Assembly: GCA_016935985.1 (NCBI GenBank)
Contig: JAFGPW010000007.1
Coordinates: 22,956 to 86,955, forward strand
Source: Candidatus Woesearchaeota archaeon
GTDB taxonomy: Archaea; Nanobdellota; Nanobdellia; Woesearchaeales; JAFGPW01
Direction: 5' to 3'
Length of the DNA stretch: 64,000 nucleotides
Part shown: piece by piece, positions 29,914 to 46,967 of the stretch
How the letters are laid out: every line of letters begins with the position of its first letter
Position numbering within the stretch: the first letter of the stretch is position 1
The notes under the pieces: model-generated
Database searches by the model: none
The model's input: the letters and a program-made list of their open reading frames with translations, nothing else
Told to the model about the DNA's origin: nothing
Program-made: the position numbers and the translations under genes

Positions 29914-30978
29914 TTAGAGAAGCCCCAGCCGCTCGGCCGCGAGCACGAGCATCGCGTGCGACCAGGCGAGCGGACACACGCCCTCCTGCACGTCGTTGCC
30001 GAACACCTGCTCCGGCAAGTAGGGCGAGCCCTTAGCGTCGCGCAGCACCGTGGTGAAGTACCGCATCGCCTTCTTCCGGTCGCCGGCCTCCTGCCAGTAT
30101 GTCGCCATCAGCAGAGTGAGCAGCGGCCAGGACCCTGCCCCCTTCTTCCGGTCCGTCGCCTTCCGGTGCATCCATCCGTCGTAGCTGTCGCCCTCGTAGC
30201 GCATGATGCCGCCTCCCTTCCTGAGCCGCTCCTCGATCATCGAGACCGTGCGCCGCATGCGCGGGTCCTTCGCGCCGACGATGCCGAACGGCCAGACGAG
30301 CGCGAGGGCTGAGGCGTCGATGCGGGCGTCGCCGAAGCGTCCGACCGAGCGGGGGAAATAGCCCTTCACGCGCAGCAGCCGCTGCTCCATCTGGCGCGCC
30401 GCCGTCAGCCACTGCCGCTCCTTGAGAAGGTCATACGCGCAGTAGAGCCCGCACGCGCACGCGGCGAGCGAGTAGACGAAGGATTCCTTCTGGTCAGGGA
30501 ACGCGAGGCGCTCCTCCCAGAGGTCCTGCGTGGCGACCGGGAAATGGTCAGTTCCCCAGACGCGACAGAGCCCGTCGGCGGACTTCCGGACCAGCCGCGC
30601 GAACGGCGCGAACCCCTCGGGGTCTCCCGAGAAACGGTCGTGGAGCGTTATCAGCACCGAGCCGGTCTGGTCAGGCTGGAAGTGCGCGCGCGCCTTCCTG
30701 CCGTCGACATGGTAGTTCTCGTAGAAGAGCCCGGTCTTCTCCCACCCTTCCGCCTTCATGAGCCAGCGGAAGTACTTCTCGTGGATATCCATGCCGAGCC
30801 GGCGCGCGGCGAGGCAGACATACATCGCGTCGCGCGGCCAGACGAAGCGGTAGTCCTTCGCCTCAGTCGGGTAGTAGGGCTTATGCGAGTTCGCGGCGAC
30901 GATTGCGCCGTTTCGGAGCGCGCAGTCGGCGAGCACGCGCCGCGTGCTCGCAATCAGTCTCTGAAGCTGCCTGTCCAT
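29914..30978 (-). CDS. Glycoside hydrolase family 15 (glucoamylase-type catalytic domain)
   Basis: ATG 30978: MDRQLQRLIASTRRVLADCALRNGAIVAA...YRFVWPRDAMYV...QPDQTGSVL...WEERL. Confidence 0.8.
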   Translation of the reverse strand: MDRQLQRLIASTRRVLADCALRNGAIVAANSHKPYYPTEAKDYRFVWPRDAMYVCLAARRLGMDIHEKYFRWLMKAEGWEKTGLFYENYHVDGRKARAHFQPDQTGSVLITLHDRFSGDPEGFAPFARLVRKSADGLCRVWGTDHFPVATQDLWEERLAFPDQKESFVYSLAACACGLYCAYDLLKERQWLTAARQMEQRLLRVKGYFPRSVGRFGDARIDASALALVWPFGIVGAKDPRMRRTVSMIEERLRKGGGIMRYEGDSYDGWMHRKATDRKKGAGSWPLLTLLMATYWQEAGDRKKAMRYFTTVLRDAKGSPYLPEQVFGNDVQEGVCPLAWSHAMLVLAAERLGLL

Positions 30979-31031
30979 GCATTCAATCAAGGAAAATAGG
31001 TATAAAAACTTTTGTAGGGAGAGTATGACCC

Positions 31032-32294
31032 TTATGGCTGGCGAAGACAGTAGGGATCCATCCCATCCACTCGCCCGGTCTTGATCCAGCCGACGACCCA
31101 GCAGCCGCCCCAGCAGCCCTTGCCATAGTCGGTGCAGGCGTTGCATTCCGCGGACTTGCCCGCTGCCCGCACGTTCCTCAGGACGTCGCTGTTCAGCCAG
31201 ATATCGGTAAGGCTCGTGCTATCTGAGATGACACCGGCCCTGAAGGTAGTTCCTTTGTCCACCTCCTGCGCGAACCCACATGGGTAGACCTCACCGAGAT
31301 GGGTCACCTGTACGCCCCAGAGCGGAGCGCCGCAGGAGACAGGGTTGTGCAGGTCGAAGATCGGCACCTGCCGACCTCCCTCGTAGATGTCAAAGTTGAA
31401 CGATAGGGGGACGCCCGTCTCCTGCCTGAGCCGTGTCGCATGCTGGGTGTAGTCGATCAGCTGCTTTTTCGTCGGAATTTCATCCAACATGTCTGCGCCC
31501 CGTCCGATCGGACGCAGCGGTATTGGCTGGAAGCCCGCACGGTACCGCTTCGCGAGCCCGACGAGATGCTCGAGCTGCTCGAGATTACATGACGACCTGA
31601 TAATCGTCGTGCTGATCCGCGGGTTGAGGCCGTACTCGGCGAGCTTCGCGAGCGTGTCGACCGTCGGCGCATAGGTCCCCTTGCCGCGGATCGACTCGTG
31701 CATCTCCTCCGTCCCGTCGATGCTGATCTTTGACTGGATGATGTTGCCGCATGAGGCGAGCTCCTCGAGGAAGGCGTCCTTGCGATCGATGCATCTCCAG
31801 ACGCCGTTGGTCGAGAGGATGACCGCGAGCCCGAGCTCCCGCGTCAATTCCATCGTCCTGAGCAGGTCGAAGCCGCGGACGCCGATCTCCCCGCCGGTGA
31901 GCTGCAGCTGGAAGGCGCCGGCGTCCGCGATCTGCGTGATGAGATAGCGCTCCTGCTCTTCGGTCGCCGGCCGTAGGCTGTCATGGAGGTCCCGCGGCCC
32001 GCATATGGTGCAGGCGAGGTCGCACCGCGGCTCGATTCCGTAGTAGATGCGCAGCGGCCGGTTGAGGCCGTCGTAGGGCTCGTCGATGATGTCGAGGCGG
32101 GCGACGAGGTCGCCGGCAGCGTCGAAGAACGGGGCGCTCCCGCCATGCGTATCGAGGATACCTTTCAGACGGACGGCTCCGTCGGCGATAATCGCGTCGA
32201 TGTCGTCACGGCCGAGCGCGATCCGCCGCATCATGCCGCGTTGGTCCTGGGTCAGCAGGCCGTCGGGATCGACCCGGATGCGCCTGAGGTTCAT
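31032..32294 (-). CDS. Radical SAM/SPASM-domain protein (rSAM-B) with a ~90-aa N-terminal extension
   Basis: EPRCDLACTICG (CxxxCxxC). C-terminal Cys cluster CNACTDYGKGCWGGCW...DPYC. The start ATG overlaps the upstream stop (ATGA). Confidence 0.85.
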   Translation of the reverse strand: MNLRRIRVDPDGLLTQDQRGMMRRIALGRDDIDAIIADGAVRLKGILDTHGGSAPFFDAAGDLVARLDIIDEPYDGLNRPLRIYYGIEPRCDLACTICGPRDLHDSLRPATEEQERYLITQIADAGAFQLQLTGGEIGVRGFDLLRTMELTRELGLAVILSTNGVWRCIDRKDAFLEELASCGNIIQSKISIDGTEEMHESIRGKGTYAPTVDTLAKLAEYGLNPRISTTIIRSSCNLEQLEHLVGLAKRYRAGFQPIPLRPIGRGADMLDEIPTKKQLIDYTQHATRLRQETGVPLSFNFDIYEGGRQVPIFDLHNPVSCGAPLWGVQVTHLGEVYPCGFAQEVDKGTTFRAGVISDSTSLTDIWLNSDVLRNVRAAGKSAECNACTDYGKGCWGGCWVVGWIKTGRVDGMDPYCLRQP

Positions 32295-32311
32295 CTGAGC
32301 AGCCTCCCGAT
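32256..32311. repeat. 56-bp junction repeat, copy 1 (end of the inserted ORF plus the first 13 codons of rSAM-B)
   Basis: 55/56 identical to 32925-32980. Encodes ...IGRLLR-stop overlapping MNLRRIRVDPDG. Confidence 0.85.
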
Positions 32312-32839
32312 ACCCGCAGAGAGCCAGGCGTCTCTTGTTGGCTGTACTTTCCTCATGAAATAGACCAACAGGACATCTGCCGGGTCATCGAAGAAGATGG
32401 TCACGTCGTCCTTCCTTCGCGTATCCCAATAGTCATCCTTATCGTCGTTGGCCATATAGGCATTGAATCGTGGATACAGCGCGCCTTCTGCTGGCGTATA
32501 CGGCACCCCATCAGCGACGGGCCGCGCGGTCTTCGCCGTGAAGATGTAGCCCTTCCTGCCGAGCCACAGATGATAAGTATCGGCGCCACTCGCCCTCAGA
32601 ACGTTCGCATATCTCTCATCACAGAAATCAATAAGGGGATGGATGGGATGGTGCAGTCCGAGGAGTTCTAGGTCTTTGCCCGAAATCTTCTGATGTTCCA
32701 CGACCCATTCCTCATATAAGTAACCAATCCGGTCAATAGCCGAAAGAAGCTCATCAGAGGGGTACTCCTCATGATGGCCTATGAAGCTGATTGTATTGAG
32801 GGCATCTTCCAGTCGTGTCCTAAAGGATATCATGGGCAT
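32291..32839 (-). CDS. Hypothetical protein (182 aa), slot ORF 2 of the rSAM locus
   Basis: MPMISFRTRLEDALNTISF...AGIGRLLR. No family recognised. Its stop overlaps the rSAM-B ATG. Confidence 0.6.
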   Translation of the reverse strand: MPMISFRTRLEDALNTISFIGHHEEYPSDELLSAIDRIGYLYEEWVVEHQKISGKDLELLGLHHPIHPLIDFCDERYANVLRASGADTYHLWLGRKGYIFTAKTARPVADGVPYTPAEGALYPRFNAYMANDDKDDYWDTRRKDDVTIFFDDPADVLLVYFMRKVQPTRDAWLSAGIGRLLR

Positions 32840-32840
32840 C

Positions 32841-32928
32841 ACCTAGATGTATCGGAACAGGTAGTGGTCCTTCACGATGAAGTCGATGACAGGATCGTAC
32901 CGAAGCATCGGGCAGTTCGGGACGCAGG
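32841..32928. repeat. 88-bp junction repeat, copy 2 (rSAM-A-like 3' end)
   Basis: 79/88 identical to 33960-34047. Encodes CVPNCPMLRYDPVIDFIVKDHYLFRYI-TAG. Confidence 0.85.
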
Positions 32929-32963
32929 CCGTCAGGATCGACCCGGATGCGCCTGAGGTTCAT
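32844..32963 (-). pseudogene. Chimeric radical-SAM remnant (rSAM-B-type first 13 codons joined out of frame to the rSAM-A-type last 28 codons)
   Basis: ATGAACCTCAGGCGCATCCGGGTCGATCCTGACGGCCTG then CGTCCCGAACTGCCCGATG... The C-terminal reading frame is +1 relative to the ATG. Confidence 0.75.
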
Positions 32964-32980
32964 CTGAGCAGCCTCCCGAT
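32925..32980. repeat. 56-bp junction repeat, copy 2
   Basis: See 32256-32311. Confidence 0.85.
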
Positions 32981-33952
32981 GCGCTCATAGAGCCGGGGCG
33001 TGACCTTGAGGAGCTGGACGACGCCGTCCAGCACGATGTCCCGGCCGTCCCAGTTCGTGCCTTCCAGTATCGTGTAGCTCTCAGCCAGGTTCGCGATGCG
33101 CCGATCGGCCATCGTCTCATGGAGATTGCCGCGGGCATCGCCGTCATAGAGCGTTCCGTCGAGCGACTCTATCGAGAGGATCTCCCGATCGCACTCATGG
33201 TCAGGCAGAATCCGGTCTGTCGAATAGAGCCTGGTCAGCACAGAGCCTGCGTTCCTGACCGTCCCCCACGCATAGGTAGTATGATTACCTTTGACGAGAT
33301 ACCGCATTTCTGCAGGCAGCGACTCCTCCTCATCGACCGTGCCGTCCTTATCCATGACGCAATAGAGAGTGCGGGGATCGTGGTTGCCGGAGCCCGTGCG
33401 GTCGGGCTTGACGAGTATATGGAGCAGGCCGCCGGATGCGCGCATATCGAGCACGTCCCCATCCATATCGGCGATCCGCTCCTTTGTTGGGGTATGATAT
33501 ATACCCTTATTATATGCATGATAGAGCGTGCCGTGGAGCGCGGCGATGGACGTTCCGACCGGACGTATCGCGGCCTTCCTGTGGTTGGTCGCATCATAGA
33601 GGCCGATGTCGCTTCCCGCGACATACAGCACATCATTAACGGAGATGAGCATGTGGTTTCTGCGATCGCCTGGCACCGGCACCGAGATATGTTTCTTGAA
33701 GACCGCGGTGACATTGTCCGTACCCCCATAGGGGACGTAATGCTGGTAGAAGATGTTGTCCTTATGTACGCAGAAGACGTTGCGGTTGTCTTCCATGTAT
33801 TGTGTCCAGGATGTTGCTGAAGGTAGCAGTACCGCCTCTTGGCCCTTCATGAAGAGGAAGAAGTCGTAGACCTGACAGTCATAAGGTATCACGGGTAGAG
33901 GGTGCGTCGCCCGCACCACAGCGATGAGCCCAATATCTGCTTTCGTTTTCAT
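32960..33952 (-). CDS. Hypothetical protein (330 aa) with beta-propeller-like G-x-LY repeats, slot ORF 1 of the rSAM locus
   Basis: Recurrent blades: VLYVAGSDIGLYD, LHGTLYHAYNKGIYH, SGGLLHILV, LDGTLYDGDARGNLHE. Ends ERIGRLLR. Confidence 0.6.
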   Translation of the reverse strand: MKTKADIGLIAVVRATHPLPVIPYDCQVYDFFLFMKGQEAVLLPSATSWTQYMEDNRNVFCVHKDNIFYQHYVPYGGTDNVTAVFKKHISVPVPGDRRNHMLISVNDVLYVAGSDIGLYDATNHRKAAIRPVGTSIAALHGTLYHAYNKGIYHTPTKERIADMDGDVLDMRASGGLLHILVKPDRTGSGNHDPRTLYCVMDKDGTVDEEESLPAEMRYLVKGNHTTYAWGTVRNAGSVLTRLYSTDRILPDHECDREILSIESLDGTLYDGDARGNLHETMADRRIANLAESYTILEGTNWDGRDIVLDGVVQLLKVTPRLYERIGRLLR

Positions 33953-33959
33953 TCGGATT

Positions 33960-34047
33960 ACCTAGATGTATCGGAACCGGTAATGGTCCTTCGCGATATA
34001 GTCGATGACCGGATTGTAGCGCAGCATCGGGCAGTTCGGGACGCAGG
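33960..34047. repeat. 88-bp junction repeat, copy 1 (3' end of rSAM-A)
   Basis: See 32841-32928. Confidence 0.85.
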
Positions 34048-35035
34048 TCGCCGGATCGATCGCGCCGAAGACCTCGAGATGCCGCTCGGAGAACCAATGC
34101 CTGAGGAAGCCGCCGTCGTGGATGTTGCCGATAGAATGCCTCTTCTTGCGATGCTCGAAGAACGCGCACACGTATATCTCGCCGTCCCAGTCGACCACCG
34201 GATGGAGGAAGGTCATCAGGCACTTCTCCTGCCGCATCACCACGCCCTTGTAGGCGGGCACGAGCTCTGCGACGAGCGGAGGGGGGGCACCCCTGATCTG
34301 GTCTTGTATCTGTTCCGAGAGCCGGACGGTCGCATCCTCATCGAGAACGAGGCGCTCGGGAAAGCCGAGGAACTTGTACTGGAGGTAATCGACGCCCATC
34401 TCGAGCGCCTCACCGAGCGCGAGAAGCGCGTCGTCGGCGTTGAGCCGGGAGATGAGGATCTTCACCCCGACCTTCGTCGTCCCGTCGGCGCGGGCGGCGA
34501 TGGATGCGATCATGGCCTTCAGGTCCTGGTAACTGATGTCCTTTCTCCCATGGACCCGCCGATAGGTCGGTTCGGTGAAGCCGTCGACAGAGAAGCGCAC
34601 CCAATCGCCGTACGCCAACACGCGGTCGACGAGCTCAGGAGACTTGACGAGCCGGTCGCCGTTGGTGATGATGCCAGTCCTGAAGGAATGGGAAGCCATG
34701 CTATCGAATATCGCCCCGATGTCAGGATGGTCCATCGATTCCCCTCCGCCAGACAGCTCGATTGCCTTGACGTCCTTCCCGGCGAGCTCCGCGAGCAGGG
34801 CATCGATCGTTGGGGCAGGAAGGAAATCAGAGGTGCTGCCATGCGTGCCCTGGAACCTGCAATGCGGGCAGTCATAGGCGCAGAAATTCGTCGGGAACAG
34901 CTCGATGACCTCAGGAACCGGAATCTCCCGCTTGAGGACCTGGAGGACTTTCGGTCAGGCGGCGATGAGCTGGGCTACAGAAGAATCGAGAGGGCGATAG
35001 ATTCCTTTTGTGTCAAGGCGGTCAGTATTACCCAT
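33962..35035 (-). pseudogene. Radical SAM protein (rSAM-A) interrupted by an in-frame TGA at 34955-34957
   Basis: ATG 35035 MGNTDRLDTKGIYRPLDSSVAQLIAA-TGA-PKVLQVLKREIPVPEVIELFPTNFCAYDCPHCRF (CxxxCxxC). No ATG/GTG/TTG lies between the TGA and the first in-frame ATG at 34735 (MDHPD), which is downstream of the cluster motif. Confidence 0.7.
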
Positions 35036-35060
35036 CAATCCGAAGGAGAGGCGTATGATA

Positions 35061-35073
35061 CTATAAATATTTT
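35061..35073 (-). promoter_or_regulatory. TATA-like box (minus strand AAAATATTTATAG) for the rSAM operon
   Basis: 26-38 nt upstream of ATG 35035. Confidence 0.45.
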
Positions 35074-35106
35074 GTTAATTTCATCCCTGAATAGTGAAGA
35101 ATATTT

Positions 35107-35997
35107 TCAATAATCGTCGAGGAGGGCCTGGCCGGGCTCGCGCTCGACGATCGGCTGGGCGTCGATCCCGGCCCGCCGCAGTTCGCCCGCGAACTCTTCG
35201 GCGAAGCCGTGGAAGGTGTAGACCTTCTCGGGCCTGCACTGCAGGATGAAGTCGACGAGCTGGGGATAGTCGCAGTGGTTGGATATCGGGAACGCGGCAT
35301 CCGCGCCGATGCGGTACCGGTAGCGCGGGTCGACCGCCCATCCCGAGACCCCGACCGAAGTGTAGCCGGGGAGCGCGTAGTTGCCCACCAGCACGTCGGT
35401 CGCCTTCGGGTCGTAGTAGAGGTGCCGGAGCCCCAGCGCCCGGTTGACCCGCTCGACCTGCGGCGAGACGTTGAAGGGGATCTTCGCGGCGGAGAGCAGG
35501 TGGCAGACCTCCTGGGCCTTGCCGAAGGTGTAGGCCTTGACGATGACTGTCCCCTTGTCCTTGACGAAGTCGATGAGCTCCTTCGCCGTCTCGCCGTAGT
35601 CGGGGAAGATGTAGTCGGCCTTCCCGAAGGTCGCCTCGACGATGAGCGTCCCGCACCTCTTCGGCCGCGCCTTCCCGCAGTACTTGCCGGTGGTGCAGAA
35701 GTCGCCGGTGTAGAGCACCTTCTCGTCCTTCCAGTAGAACATGTTCGAGCCGATGGTATGGCCCGCGTCGAGCGAGAGGATGTTGCTGTCATGGAGCGGC
35801 TCGATCGTCTTGCGCCTGGTCCGGAGGCGGAGGATCCTCCTCGTCGGATCGGAGCAGAGGACCCGCTTGCCGTTGAACCGGCTCGGGATGTGGTCGTAGT
35901 GGGCGTGCGAGACGAGAATCCGGTCGGTCTCGCGGTCCTTTCTGAATATACGCATCGCCGCCGGGTCGAGGGTGAAGATGTTGTCGACGAGGAACAT
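35107..35997 (-). CDS. MBL-fold metallo-hydrolase (beta-CASP-like)
   Basis: ILVSHAHYDH (HxHxDH), ...DAGHTIGS..., ...TFHGF. Confidence 0.75.
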   Translation of the reverse strand: MFLVDNIFTLDPAAMRIFRKDRETDRILVSHAHYDHIPSRFNGKRVLCSDPTRRILRLRTRRKTIEPLHDSNILSLDAGHTIGSNMFYWKDEKVLYTGDFCTTGKYCGKARPKRCGTLIVEATFGKADYIFPDYGETAKELIDFVKDKGTVIVKAYTFGKAQEVCHLLSAAKIPFNVSPQVERVNRALGLRHLYYDPKATDVLVGNYALPGYTSVGVSGWAVDPRYRYRIGADAAFPISNHCDYPQLVDFILQCRPEKVYTFHGFAEEFAGELRRAGIDAQPIVEREPGQALLDDY

Positions 35998-46834: not shown

Positions 46835-46967
46835 GCCGCCCTAGCTCAGTCGGTTAGAGCGCTACGCTCATAAGCTGTATGAGCGATGAGGAGGGCATCC
46901 CCTCCGATGAACGAGACCATGTAGCGCGGAAACGTAGAGGTCCGGGGTTCAAGTCCCCGGGGCGGCA
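46835..46967 (+). tRNA. tRNA with CAU anticodon (elongator Met or Ile2) carrying a 59-nt intron at 37/38 (46873-46931)
   Basis: Acceptor GCCGCCC/GGGCGGC. D-arm GCTC-AGTCGGTTA-GAGC. Anticodon stem CTACG/CGTAG with loop CTCATA|A. T-arm CGGGG-TTCAAGT-CCCCG. Confidence 0.85.

What the first reader, a model, noticed from the sequence alone, without database searches (positions are those of the whole stretch)
31032..35035. Cassette-like slots: two unrelated ORFs bounded by the same 88-bp upstream and 56-bp downstream junctions between radical-SAM genes
The minus-strand order is rSAM-A (35035-33962), a 330-aa propeller-like ORF (33952-32960), a 120-bp rSAM remnant, a 182-aa ORF (32839-32291), then rSAM-B/SPASM (32294-31032). 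The 88 bp that end an rSAM-A-type frame (33960-34047 and 32841-32928) are 79/88 identical. They encode CVPNCPMLRY(N/D)PVID(Y/F)I(A/V)KDHY(R/L)FRYI-TAG. The 56 bp spanning the last six codons of each inserted ORF plus the first 13 codons of an rSAM-B-type gene (32256-32311 and 32925-32980) are 55/56 identical. They encode IGRLLR-stop overlapping MNLRRIRVDPDG. The 0.55-kb and 1.0-kb ORFs between these junctions are otherwise unrelated. This pattern fits alternative gene cassettes swapped or stacked by recombination at conserved flanks, not a simple duplication. Both inserted proteins share the IGRLLR tail and an ATGA overlap with a radical-SAM start, so they could be partners or substrates of those enzymes. 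I cannot place any of the four proteins in a characterised pathway.
Basis: seen in the sequence. Interest (0 to 1): 0.8.

Follow-up and report, generated by a model that had tools for sequence, protein, structure and literature searches.

The report
Two orphan genes stacked between radical-SAM genes
In one uncultured archaeon, a pair of radical-SAM enzyme genes that sit side by side in every relative has been split by two unrelated genes of unknown function, and a recombination scar shows they were stacked by joining two diverged copies of the same locus; this is a real but one-off rearrangement, not a demonstrated cassette system.

Summary
The repeats are 79/88 and 55/56 identical, each far beyond chance, and the two ORFs between them are unrelated. 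Four points change the picture.

1. In 10 distinct related loci (46-68% identity), rSAM-A and rSAM-B are directly adjacent, about 1-40 nt apart. The "slot" is empty everywhere else.
2. The 120-bp "remnant" is a B-start/A-end hybrid. The two parts are joined at a 5-bp CCTGC inside an 18-nt imperfect microhomology, which is the mark of illegitimate recombination. An assembler could not have made this join.
3. The two A-end copies differ mostly at synonymous sites (pS 0.29, pN 0.06, p≈0.02). This suggests two diverged alleles were joined, rather than a duplication in place.
4. The shared IGRLLR tail is simply rSAM-B's Shine-Dalgarno sequence (GGAGG) plus its start codon.

Both inserted ORFs look foreign (GC3 0.71 and 0.60, against 0.77-0.94 in neighbouring genes). 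X1 has no homologue in two very large protein collections; X2 has none in the one word-indexed collection searched. Their functions remain unknown. The organism appears in only one public sample, so cassette exchange cannot be surveyed. Interest is modest.

The parts
35061..35073 (-). AT-rich TATA-like box (TTTATA at 35066-35061), about 25-30 nt upstream of the rSAM-A ATG. Putative archaeal promoter of the whole gene string.
   Evidence: Read directly from the sequence. Not tested.
33962..35035 (-). rSAM-A: a radical SAM enzyme gene with a truncated (4-Cys, Twitch-like) SPASM domain, 357 codons, interrupted by one nonsense codon.
   Evidence: Pfam Radical_SAM 1.9e-15 and SPASM 9.8e-6. CAYDCPHC motif. 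46-61% identical to the gene directly upstream of rSAM-B in 10 related loci.
34955..34957 (-). In-frame TGA at codon 27 of rSAM-A, at a conserved Trp position (QLIxAWPKVLQ).
   Evidence: Translation. Of the 10 distinct homologues showing this motif, 8 have W, one Y and one F. Also present in the Logan contig of SRR13394437. No general TGA recoding in the window.
33949..34059 (-). Left-flank repeat, copy 1: the last ~30 codons of rSAM-A (CVPNCPMLRYNPVIDYIAKDHYRFRYI), TAG, a 9-nt SD-like spacer, and ATGA of X1.
32960..33952 (-). X1: a 330-aa ORFan. GC3 is 0.71. Its start codon is at the position held by the rSAM-B start in several relatives. Its stop overlaps a B-type ATG (ATGA).
   Evidence: No homologue. 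No family hit.
32924..32997 (-). Right-flank repeat, copy 1: the X1 tail with SD GGAGG, followed by the first 13 codons of an rSAM-B-type gene.
32924..32941 (-). Hybrid junction. TCGATCCTGACGGCCTGC matches rSAM-B up to CCTGC and rSAM-A from CCTGC onward. The crossover lies in the 5-bp CCTGC (32928-32924), inside an 18-nt stretch where A and B match at 15/18 positions.
   Evidence: Alignment of the three sequences.
32830..32941 (-). Left-flank repeat, copy 2 (remnant): A-end' (CVPNCPMLRYDPVIDFIVKDHYLFRYI), TAG, a 9-nt spacer (AGGTGAT, SD-like), and ATGA of X2.
   Evidence: Against copy 1 there are 5 synonymous and 4 nonsynonymous differences.
32820..32963 (-). 47-codon hybrid ORF. It starts at the B-type ATG, reads the A-end' in another frame, and ends 11-19 nt inside X2 depending on which X2 start is used. 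It may carry ribosomes from X1 toward X2.
   Evidence: Inference only.
32291..32839 (-). X2: a 182-aa ORFan (alternative starts are GTG 32842 and ATG 32833). GC3 is 0.60. Its stop overlaps the rSAM-B ATG.
   Evidence: No homologue. No family hit.
32255..32328 (-). Right-flank repeat, copy 2: the X2 tail with SD GGAGG, followed by the true 5' end of rSAM-B.
31032..32294 (-). rSAM-B: an intact 420-aa radical SAM/SPASM enzyme (full 7-Cys SPASM) with an ~85-aa N-terminal extension.
   Evidence: Pfam. Nearest NCBIfam family is MftC, 130.9 bits against a cut-off of 265. Nearest PDB entries are PqqE 6c8v, SkfB, SuiB and YydG. 82 homologous clusters, best 68% identity.
30993..31008 (-). T-runs (T5, T4) just after the rSAM-B stop. 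Plausible archaeal terminator and/or promoter of the next gene (GH15).
   Evidence: Read directly from the sequence. Not tested.

Best explanation
An uncultured archaeon carries a conserved two-gene radical SAM/SPASM module. In relatives, rSAM-A is followed directly by rSAM-B, typically as stop codon, ~9-12 nt with a Shine-Dalgarno-like sequence, then ATG. In this lineage, foreign genes of unknown function were inserted exactly at that junction.

Each insert uses the old downstream-gene start position. Each also ends in a ~45-nt tail that supplies a new ribosome-binding site (GGAGG) and restores the rSAM-B start by an ATGA overlap.

Two diverged versions of the locus existed, A-X1-B and A'-X2-B'. 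They were joined out of register by illegitimate recombination at a 5-bp CCTGC, which lies inside an 18-nt imperfect match between the 5' end of B and the 3' end of A. The most likely route was import of a related strain's DNA, anchored by homology on one side (homology-facilitated illegitimate recombination), or an unequal crossover between chromosome copies. The product is A - X1 - [13 codons of B fused to the last 28 codons of A'] - X2 - B.

The gene string is tightly packed, so it is probably one transcript with translational coupling. rSAM-A has since acquired, or carries, a TGG-to-TGA nonsense mutation, so the enzyme pair may no longer work.

**Shown:** the anatomy, the junction, the empty slot in relatives, the ORFan status and the foreign composition. 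**Inferred:** the two-allele history, co-transcription, and any function of X1 or X2.
For: - **Repeats.** They are real and exactly as described.
- **Hybrid junction.** The crossover lies in CCTGC inside TCGATCC(-/C)GRCGRCCTGC.
- **Empty slot in relatives.** A and B abut in L001-3, L007-12 and L014-19. The junction is usually stop + ~9-12 nt + ATG, with outliers of 1 and 40 nt. The X1 and X2 ATGs sit 9 nt after the A-type stop, as the B start does in L001, L008/9 and L011/12.
- **Two-allele history.** In the A reading frame, A-end and A-end' differ by 5 synonymous and 4 nonsynonymous changes (pS 0.29, pN 0.063, Fisher p=0.017). The remnant is not now read in that frame.
- **Foreign composition.** GC3 is 0.71 for X1 and 0.60 for X2. 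It is 0.82-0.84 for A and B, and 0.77-0.94 for neighbouring genes, most at 0.89 or above.
- **Real coding sequences.** X1 and X2 score best in their own frame.
- **Tail explained.** GGAGG(TG)-type ribosome-binding sites are common before genes of this genome, which accounts for the conserved tail.
- **Independent assembly.** Logan contigs of SRR13394437 are 100% identical to the window and break exactly at the 46-nt perfect repeat block, as a k=31 graph must.
- **Nonsense codon.** The TGA aligns with Trp in homologues.
- **Precedent.** Stacking of variable genes behind remnants of a conserved upstream gene, with this mechanism proposed, is described in PMC5361080.
Against: - No intact A-X1-B or A'-X2-B' allele, and no X homologue, has been seen anywhere. 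The two-allele step rests on 9 substitutions in 81 nt.
- The B-start block is 46/46 identical, while the rest of the repeats differ by 14.6% (P≈7e-4). That needs an extra assumption: nucleotide-level constraint on the translation start region, or later gene conversion.
- How the original inserts arrived, and why two unrelated genes share the same ~45-nt 3' end, is unexplained.
- No reads were available to confirm the junction.
Confidence: 0.6

Rival explanations
1. Duplication in place. One possibility is that a ~150-bp A-end/spacer/B-start segment was tandemly duplicated by microhomology, and two different genes then inserted independently at the same point of each copy. The other is that an A-end-X-B-start unit was duplicated and one X was later replaced.
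For: The B-start/A-end hybrid junction is what a tandem duplication produces. The remnant carries two changes at otherwise conserved residues (N to D in RYNP, R to L in YRF). This is consistent with decay after duplication.
Against: It needs two independent, base-precise insertions or a base-precise replacement, yet no recombinase, inverted repeats or hairpin are present. The divergence of the A-end copies is biased toward synonymous sites in a frame the remnant no longer uses. X1 and X2 share nothing but the tail.
Confidence: 0.2
2. Artefact. Two strain haplotypes (A-X1-B and A'-X2-B) were joined by the assembler, or by a chimeric molecule made during amplification or library preparation.
For: This is a metagenome-derived sequence from a single sample. 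Logan unitigs break at the repeat. No read-level check was possible.
Against: At the join, the B start and the A' end share only 5 exact bases, far below any assembler k-mer. The sequence across 32924-32941 must therefore exist in reads. The two B-start copies differ by a SNP, so they are distinct sequences. No second variant of rSAM-B is in the protein collection: its cluster has one member.
Confidence: 0.07
3. A functional, exchangeable cassette slot. X1 and X2 are members of a polymorphic set of partner, substrate or selfish (homing-type) genes that target the A|B junction and are swapped between strains through the conserved flanks.
For: The two unrelated genes have identical boundaries and a shared ~45-nt 3' end that re-creates the downstream start. 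There is inferred existence of two alleles with different inserts. The organisation resembles orphan-module arrays of polymorphic toxin loci.
Against: The slot is empty in all 10 distinct related loci. No X homologue exists anywhere. There is no nuclease, toxin, immunity or defence signature and no recombinase nearby. rSAM-A carries a nonsense codon, which argues against a selected enzyme-partner unit.
Confidence: 0.12

Closest known systems
Orphan-module arrays formed by displacement in polymorphic toxin loci (V. cholerae T6SS effector-immunity arrays; Rhs C-terminal displacement; CDI orphan cdiA-CT/cdiI). See PMC5361080.
   Same: Unrelated variable genes are stacked one after another, each preceded by a remnant of the 3' end of a conserved upstream gene. 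The proposed mechanism is a homologous anchor on one side and an illegitimate join on the other. Plain duplication cannot explain heterogeneous arrays.
   Different: The conserved flanking genes here are radical SAM/SPASM enzymes, not toxins. No toxin or immunity domain is detectable. There are only two units. The scar also contains the 5' end of the downstream gene. No other strain carrying either unit is known.
Microhomology-mediated tandem duplication or unequal crossover
   Same: The novel joint fuses a downstream sequence (B start) to an upstream one (A end) at a 5-bp identity inside an 18-nt imperfect match.
   Different: The two repeat units contain unrelated central genes, and their flanks are 8-14% diverged. 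The partners were therefore not sister copies.
Integron gene-cassette arrays
   Same: Promoterless ORFs are stacked in one orientation at one site and expressed from an upstream promoter.
   Different: There is no integrase, no attI/attC, no imperfect hairpin at the cassette ends, and no further cassettes.
Free-standing homing endonuclease genes inserted between conserved co-transcribed genes (for example, phage T4 mobE between nrdA and nrdB; from general knowledge)
   Same: A precise intergenic insertion between two conserved adjacent genes. It is absent from relatives, has foreign composition, and has diverged flanks that could reflect co-conversion.
   Different: No nuclease motif or family hit in X1 or X2. 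No evidence of mobility.
Peptide-modifying radical SAM/SPASM maturases (PqqE, MftC, SkfB, SuiB, YydG)
   Same: rSAM-B has the CxxxCxxC motif, a full 7-Cys SPASM domain and an N-terminal extension. These enzymes are its best NCBIfam and PDB matches.
   Different: All scores fall far below the family cut-offs (MftC 130.9 against 265). No conserved precursor-peptide ORF lies next to the A-B pair in any locus. The pair belongs to an unnamed family.

Membership tests
Radical SAM superfamily (rSAM-A, rSAM-B) | CxxxCxxC cluster motif and a Radical_SAM domain above the Pfam threshold | tested here: met
   A has CAYDCPHC, PF04055 57.9 bits (cut-off 29.5). B has CDLACTIC, 44.7 bits.
SPASM/Twitch subfamily | C-terminal auxiliary-cluster Cys motif (Cx9-15Gx4C ... 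Cx2Cx5Cx3C ... C) | tested here: met
   B has all 7 Cys, PF13186 29.4 bits. A has Cx12Gx4C plus CVPNC only (4 Cys, Twitch-like), 26.2 bits.
RiPP maturase system (MftC/PqqE/SkfB type) | Score above the curated family cut-off | tested here: not met
   The best hit is MftC, 130.9 bits against 265. All other families fall further below their cut-offs.
RiPP maturase system (MftC/PqqE/SkfB type) | Adjacent, conserved precursor-peptide gene | tested here: not met
   No shared small ORF within 500 nt of A or B in 8 loci.
RiPP maturase system (MftC/PqqE/SkfB type) | RiPP recognition element (PqqD-like) in the enzyme or a partner | tested here: inconclusive
   B has a conserved ~85-aa N-terminal extension. 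Pfam finds no PqqD domain. No structure-based test was run.
Integron cassette array | Integron integrase next to the array | tested here: not met
   Precomputed Pfam families of all genes called between window positions ~25.6 kb and ~42 kb show no integrase or transposase.
Integron cassette array | attC-like imperfect inverted repeat at each cassette end | tested here: not met
   No terminal inverted repeats above shuffles. Folding z-scores are -1.26, 0.22 and -0.08.
Orphan-module arrays of polymorphic toxin loci (HFIR displacement) | Variable genes each preceded by a remnant of the conserved upstream gene, joined at microhomology | tested here: met
   An A-end' remnant precedes X2. The junction is at CCTGC.
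Orphan-module arrays of polymorphic toxin loci (HFIR displacement) | Toxin/immunity (or other polymorphic-toxin) domains in the variable part | tested here: not met
   No hit for X1 or X2 in Pfam, NCBIfam, PHROGs, PADLOC or PDB.
Orphan-module arrays of polymorphic toxin loci (HFIR displacement) | The same modules present as the main module in other strains | not testable with these tools
   The organism occurs in only one sample. The closest B homologue is 68% identical.
Simple tandem duplication | The two repeat units are homologous along their whole length | tested here: not met
   X1 against X2: only the 6-residue tail aligns, E=0.61. DNA self-BLAST finds only the two flank repeats.
Free-standing homing endonuclease gene | Recognisable nuclease domain (LAGLIDADG, GIY-YIG, HNH, etc.) | tested here: not met
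   No Pfam family even at E≤10, and no PDB match. An HH...N...H spacing seen by eye in X2 has no statistical support.
Prokaryotic viperin (pVip) defence | Score above the NCBIfam viperin cut-off | tested here: not met
   A scores 48.8 bits against 180. The PADLOC pVip hits (6e-15) cover only the generic rSAM core.
GMGT synthase Gms (AhbD-like rSAM with N-terminal lipid-binding extension; PMC11214058) | Strong AhbD similarity plus the COG4001-type ~100-aa N-terminal domain | tested here: inconclusive
   B matches AhbD at only 76.9 bits (cut-off 500) and has an unclassified ~85-aa extension. No Gms sequence was available for comparison.

The most novel reading that the evidence does not exclude
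In this archaeal lineage, the junction between two translationally coupled radical SAM/SPASM genes has become a recombination-exchangeable slot. Strains carry different, fast-evolving genes there. Each insert brings a conserved 3' end that rebuilds the downstream gene's start, and inserts are swapped or stacked through the conserved enzyme-gene flanks, as in polymorphic toxin/immunity loci. The inserted proteins, which share the C-terminal IGRLLR, might then be protein substrates or specificity partners of the enzymes.
Probability: 0.12. Interest if true: 0.6.

Novelty: new member of a known kind. Interest (0 to 1): 0.3.

Why it matters
If the reading is right, this is a clean archaeal example of a known process. 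Illegitimate recombination between diverged alleles can stack lineage-specific orphan genes inside an operon, and the recombination scar is still readable base by base.

It also defines an unnamed but widespread two-gene radical SAM/SPASM module. That module has about 80 protein clusters across archaea and several bacterial phyla, and the two genes are adjacent in every locus examined.

It does not establish a new kind of genetic system. The inserted genes have no relatives, one of the two enzyme genes carries a nonsense codon, and the organism is known from a single sample. Follow-up is therefore difficult for now.

Tried and rejected
- **Homologues of X1.** The word-indexed search of 5.8 billion clusters and full phmmer against 1.84 billion representatives found only X1 itself.
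- **Homologues of X2.** The word-indexed search found only X2 itself.
- **Other collections.** IMG/VR scans and PDB searches at E≤10 gave nothing.
- **Family libraries.** Pfam at E≤10, NCBIfam, PHROGs and PADLOC for X1 and X2 gave nothing usable.
- **Structure prediction.** AlphaFold2 without an alignment gave pLDDT 32 (X1) and 39 (X2). The models are too poor for fold search, so none was run.
- **"Propeller-like" X1.** Only one weak internal repeat was found, no better than the best of 60 shuffles.
- **Transposon or integron ends.** No terminal inverted repeats and no stable hairpin.
- **X heads or tails as degenerate copies of the B 5' end (a long target-site duplication).** Alignment scores were no better than shuffles.
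- **TGA recoding or selenocysteine to rescue rSAM-A.** A screen for further in-frame TGAs flanked by coding-like sequence returned only two sites, both of which look like ordinary gene ends. X1 and X2 themselves end in TGA. The codon aligns with Trp, not Cys.
- **Paralogues of A, B, X1 or X2 elsewhere in the window.** None.
- **Population survey.** Exact-protein look-ups of X1, B, the A fragment and the upstream MBL-fold gene all lead to a single sample, SRR13394437. X2 is not on record as a called gene.
- **HNH-like spacing (HH-15-N-11-H) seen by eye in X2.** No database support, so it was dropped.

Full report
**1. The observation**

On the minus strand the region reads as follows:
- rSAM-A, 35035-33962
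- a 330-aa ORF, here called X1, 33952-32960
- a ~120-bp remnant
- a 182-aa ORF, here called X2, 32839-32291
- rSAM-B, 32294-31032

Sensitive self-BLAST of 30900-35200 finds just these two repeats. In extended form they are 34059-33949 vs 32941-32830 (85.7% over 112 columns, E=7.5e-32) and 32997-32924 vs 32328-32255 (91.9% over 74 nt, E=7e-26). A 26-nt core occurs twice in the window, against 0.00 expected.

X1 and X2 are unrelated by BLASTP apart from the six-residue tail (E=0.61). rSAM-A and rSAM-B are not close paralogues.

**2.

rSAM-A is not an intact ORF. Codon 27 (34957-34955) is TGA. No ATG, GTG or TTG lies between it and the CAYDCPHC cluster motif.

In homologues this position sits in the conserved motif QLI(S/A)AWPKVLQ. 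It is Trp in 8 of 10 distinct loci, Tyr in one and Phe in one. The TGA is also present in an independent Logan assembly of SRR13394437 that is 100% identical to the window.

A screen for other in-frame TGAs flanked by coding-like sequence returned only two sites, both of which look like ordinary gene ends. X1 and X2 themselves end in TGA. The simplest reading is a recent TGG-to-TGA nonsense mutation. rSAM-A is probably inactive unless the stop is leaky.

**3. The genes**

- *rSAM-A.* It has a Radical_SAM domain and a truncated, 4-Cys SPASM/Twitch domain.
- *rSAM-B.* It has a Radical_SAM domain, a full 7-Cys SPASM domain and an ~85-aa N-terminal extension.
- *Nearest known relatives of B.* These are peptide-modifying enzymes: MftC (130.9 bits against a cut-off of 265), and in the PDB PqqE 6c8v, SkfB, SuiB and YydG. 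All fall far below membership thresholds.
- *Viperin.* The PADLOC viperin hits cover only the generic rSAM core.
- *Family size.* B belongs to an unnamed family of about 80 clusters. The best is 68% identical.
- *X1.* No hit in Pfam (even at E≤10), NCBIfam, PHROGs, PADLOC, PDB or IMG/VR. No homologue in 5.8 billion protein clusters, nor by full HMMER against 1.84 billion representatives.
- *X2.* No hit in the same family libraries, PDB or IMG/VR, and no homologue in the 5.8 billion clusters.
- *Structure models.* Single-sequence AlphaFold2 models are unusable, with pLDDT 32 and 39.
- *Coding potential.* Both ORFs show a proper coding-frame signal but atypical composition. GC3 is 0.71 (X1) and 0.60 (X2), against 0.82-0.84 for A and B and 0.77-0.94 for neighbouring genes, most at 0.89 or above. 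They look like real, recently acquired foreign genes.
- *Host.* It is an archaeon. The evidence is two intron-containing tRNA genes, a CTP-dependent riboflavin kinase gene nearby, and TATA-like boxes. GC content is about 62%.

**4. What occupies the slot elsewhere**

I collected A-B loci from GTDB genomes (L001-L004), JGI/ENA metagenomes (L007-L012) and Logan/JGI contigs (L014-L019).

In all 10 distinct intact pairs (B 50-68% and A 45-61% identical to the window), the A stop and the B start are close together. The gap is usually 9-12 nt, and 1 and 40 nt in two loci. Nothing lies between them.

In L004 the pair was destroyed by an IS3-family insertion. No gene flanking the pair is conserved, and no shared small ORF (candidate precursor peptide) lies beside it.

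The "slot" is therefore empty everywhere it can be examined. No closer relative exists in any collection, and the organism itself appears in only one sample.

**5. Anatomy of the boundaries**

In several relatives the junction is stop codon, 9 nt containing a Shine-Dalgarno-like sequence, then ATG. Examples are TAGGTGCAACCTATG in L008 and TAGGAGGTATATATG in L011.

In the window, the X1 and X2 start codons sit at exactly that position: TAGGTAATCCGAATG and TAGGTGATGCCCATG.

At the other end, both inserts finish with a shared ~45-nt tail: ...CCnGGCTCTnTGnGnGnATCGGGAGGCTGCTCAG|ATGA. It contains GGAGG 8 nt before the rSAM-B ATG.

GGAGG(TG)-type sites precede many genes of this genome. The conserved IGRLLR tail and the ATGA overlap are thus accounted for by rSAM-B's translation initiation region. 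They are not evidence for recognition of the proteins by the enzymes.

No terminal inverted repeats, hairpins or recombinase genes are present. The tails are not degenerate copies of the B 5' end.

**6. The scar**

The three sequences around the join are:
- Remnant: ...GGGTCGATCCTGACGGCCTGCGTCCCGAACTGCCCG...
- rSAM-B: GGGTCGATCCCGACGGCCTGCTGACCC
- rSAM-A: GCGATCGATCC-GGCGACCTGCGTCCCGAAC

The remnant follows B up to CCTGC and follows A from CCTGC onward. The crossover therefore lies in a 5-bp identity (32928-32924), inside an 18-nt stretch where A and B match at 15/18 positions.

A joint of downstream sequence to upstream sequence at microhomology is the signature of an out-of-register illegitimate recombination, that is, a tandem duplication or unequal exchange.

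Only 5 exact bases are shared at the join, and the two B-start copies differ by a SNP. A k-mer assembler therefore could not have invented this join from two strain haplotypes.

The Logan unitigs end at 32951 and begin at 32295, at the edges of the 46-nt perfect block. This is expected for any k=31 graph containing this repeat. It does not distinguish a tandem arrangement from separate alleles.

**7. History**

In the rSAM-A reading frame, the intact A end and the remnant differ by 5 synonymous and 4 nonsynonymous substitutions in 27 codons (pS 0.29, pN 0.063; Fisher p=0.017, binomial p=0.026). The remnant is no longer read in that frame.

Most of this divergence therefore accrued while both copies were parts of working A genes, meaning in two separate lineages or alleles. 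That favours a join between A-X1-B and a diverged A'-X2-B' over a duplication in place followed by decay.

Two mechanisms fit:
- Import of related DNA anchored by homology on one side and joined illegitimately on the other. This is homology-facilitated illegitimate recombination, as proposed for orphan immunity-gene arrays in V. cholerae T6SS loci and for Rhs C-terminal displacement (PMC5361080).
- An unequal crossover between chromosome copies.

Caveats:
- The test rests on only nine substitutions.
- The remnant also carries two changes at conserved residues (N to D, R to L), which suggests some later decay.
- The 46-nt block around the B start is perfectly identical, whereas the rest of the repeats differ by 14.6% (P≈7e-4). 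That requires nucleotide-level constraint on the initiation region, or a later short gene conversion.

**8. Verdict**

The stacking by recombination at conserved flanks is real. The data even imply that two alleles with different inserts existed.

Nothing, however, shows a general cassette system or a functional link between the inserts and the enzymes. The slot is empty in all relatives, the inserts are ORFans with foreign composition, and rSAM-A carries a nonsense codon.

The most likely picture is a lineage-specific, possibly decaying accessory operon that trapped foreign genes and was rearranged by illegitimate recombination. This is a known kind of event in a new gene context.

What X1 and X2 do remains unknown. 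My working guess is that they are hitch-hiking or selfish acquisitions, expressed through the operon's promoter and translational coupling. I give about 12% to the more interesting reading that they are exchangeable partners or substrates of the enzymes.

Noticed in passing
L004:2607-4443: In a Syntrophobacterales MAG, the same A-B pair is destroyed. rSAM-A stops after ~122 residues at an IS3-family insertion sequence (orfA 92 aa, orfB 280 aa). Only the last ~64 residues of rSAM-B follow. The module is therefore dispensable and decays in other lineages too.
   Followed up: partly
L017:3514-7897: In one Logan contig, rSAM-B (446 aa) is followed, with overlapping stop and start, by an AAA-family ATPase gene (283 aa) and a 731-aa gene with no Pfam domain. 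This could be an extended version of the module and a clue to its function.
   Followed up: no
window:1992-2765: A lysine-rich 257-aa ORF that looks by eye like a TatD-type hydrolase lies in the window's lowest-GC stretch (0.51, against ~0.62 elsewhere). It is probably another foreign gene in this genome.
   Followed up: no
window:46125-46241 and 46835-46967: Two tRNA genes of 117 and 133 nt were found by Rfam but not by ARAGORN. They probably contain introns, which supports an archaeal origin for the window.
   Followed up: no
L003:6138-6731: A 197-aa ORF that looks like a LAGLIDADG-type homing endonuclease (…GVFDTDGG…) lies about 190 nt upstream of rSAM-A in a 985-kb archaeal MAG contig. A tRNA-like sequence may lie between them.
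   Followed up: no
window:33950-33964; also the A/B junctions of L001, L007, L008/L009, L011/L012: The rSAM-A stop codon is in frame with the next gene's ATG (spacer of 9 or 12 nt) in the window and in several relatives. Stop-codon readthrough would fuse the two proteins. The spacing is not conserved in L002, L003, L010 or L014-19, so this is probably incidental.
   Followed up: partly
window:36810-38081: A 415-423-aa protein built of tandem PKD/cadherin-like repeats (repeated TVTASDG... units) is encoded two genes upstream of the operon. It is probably a surface protein.
   Followed up: no
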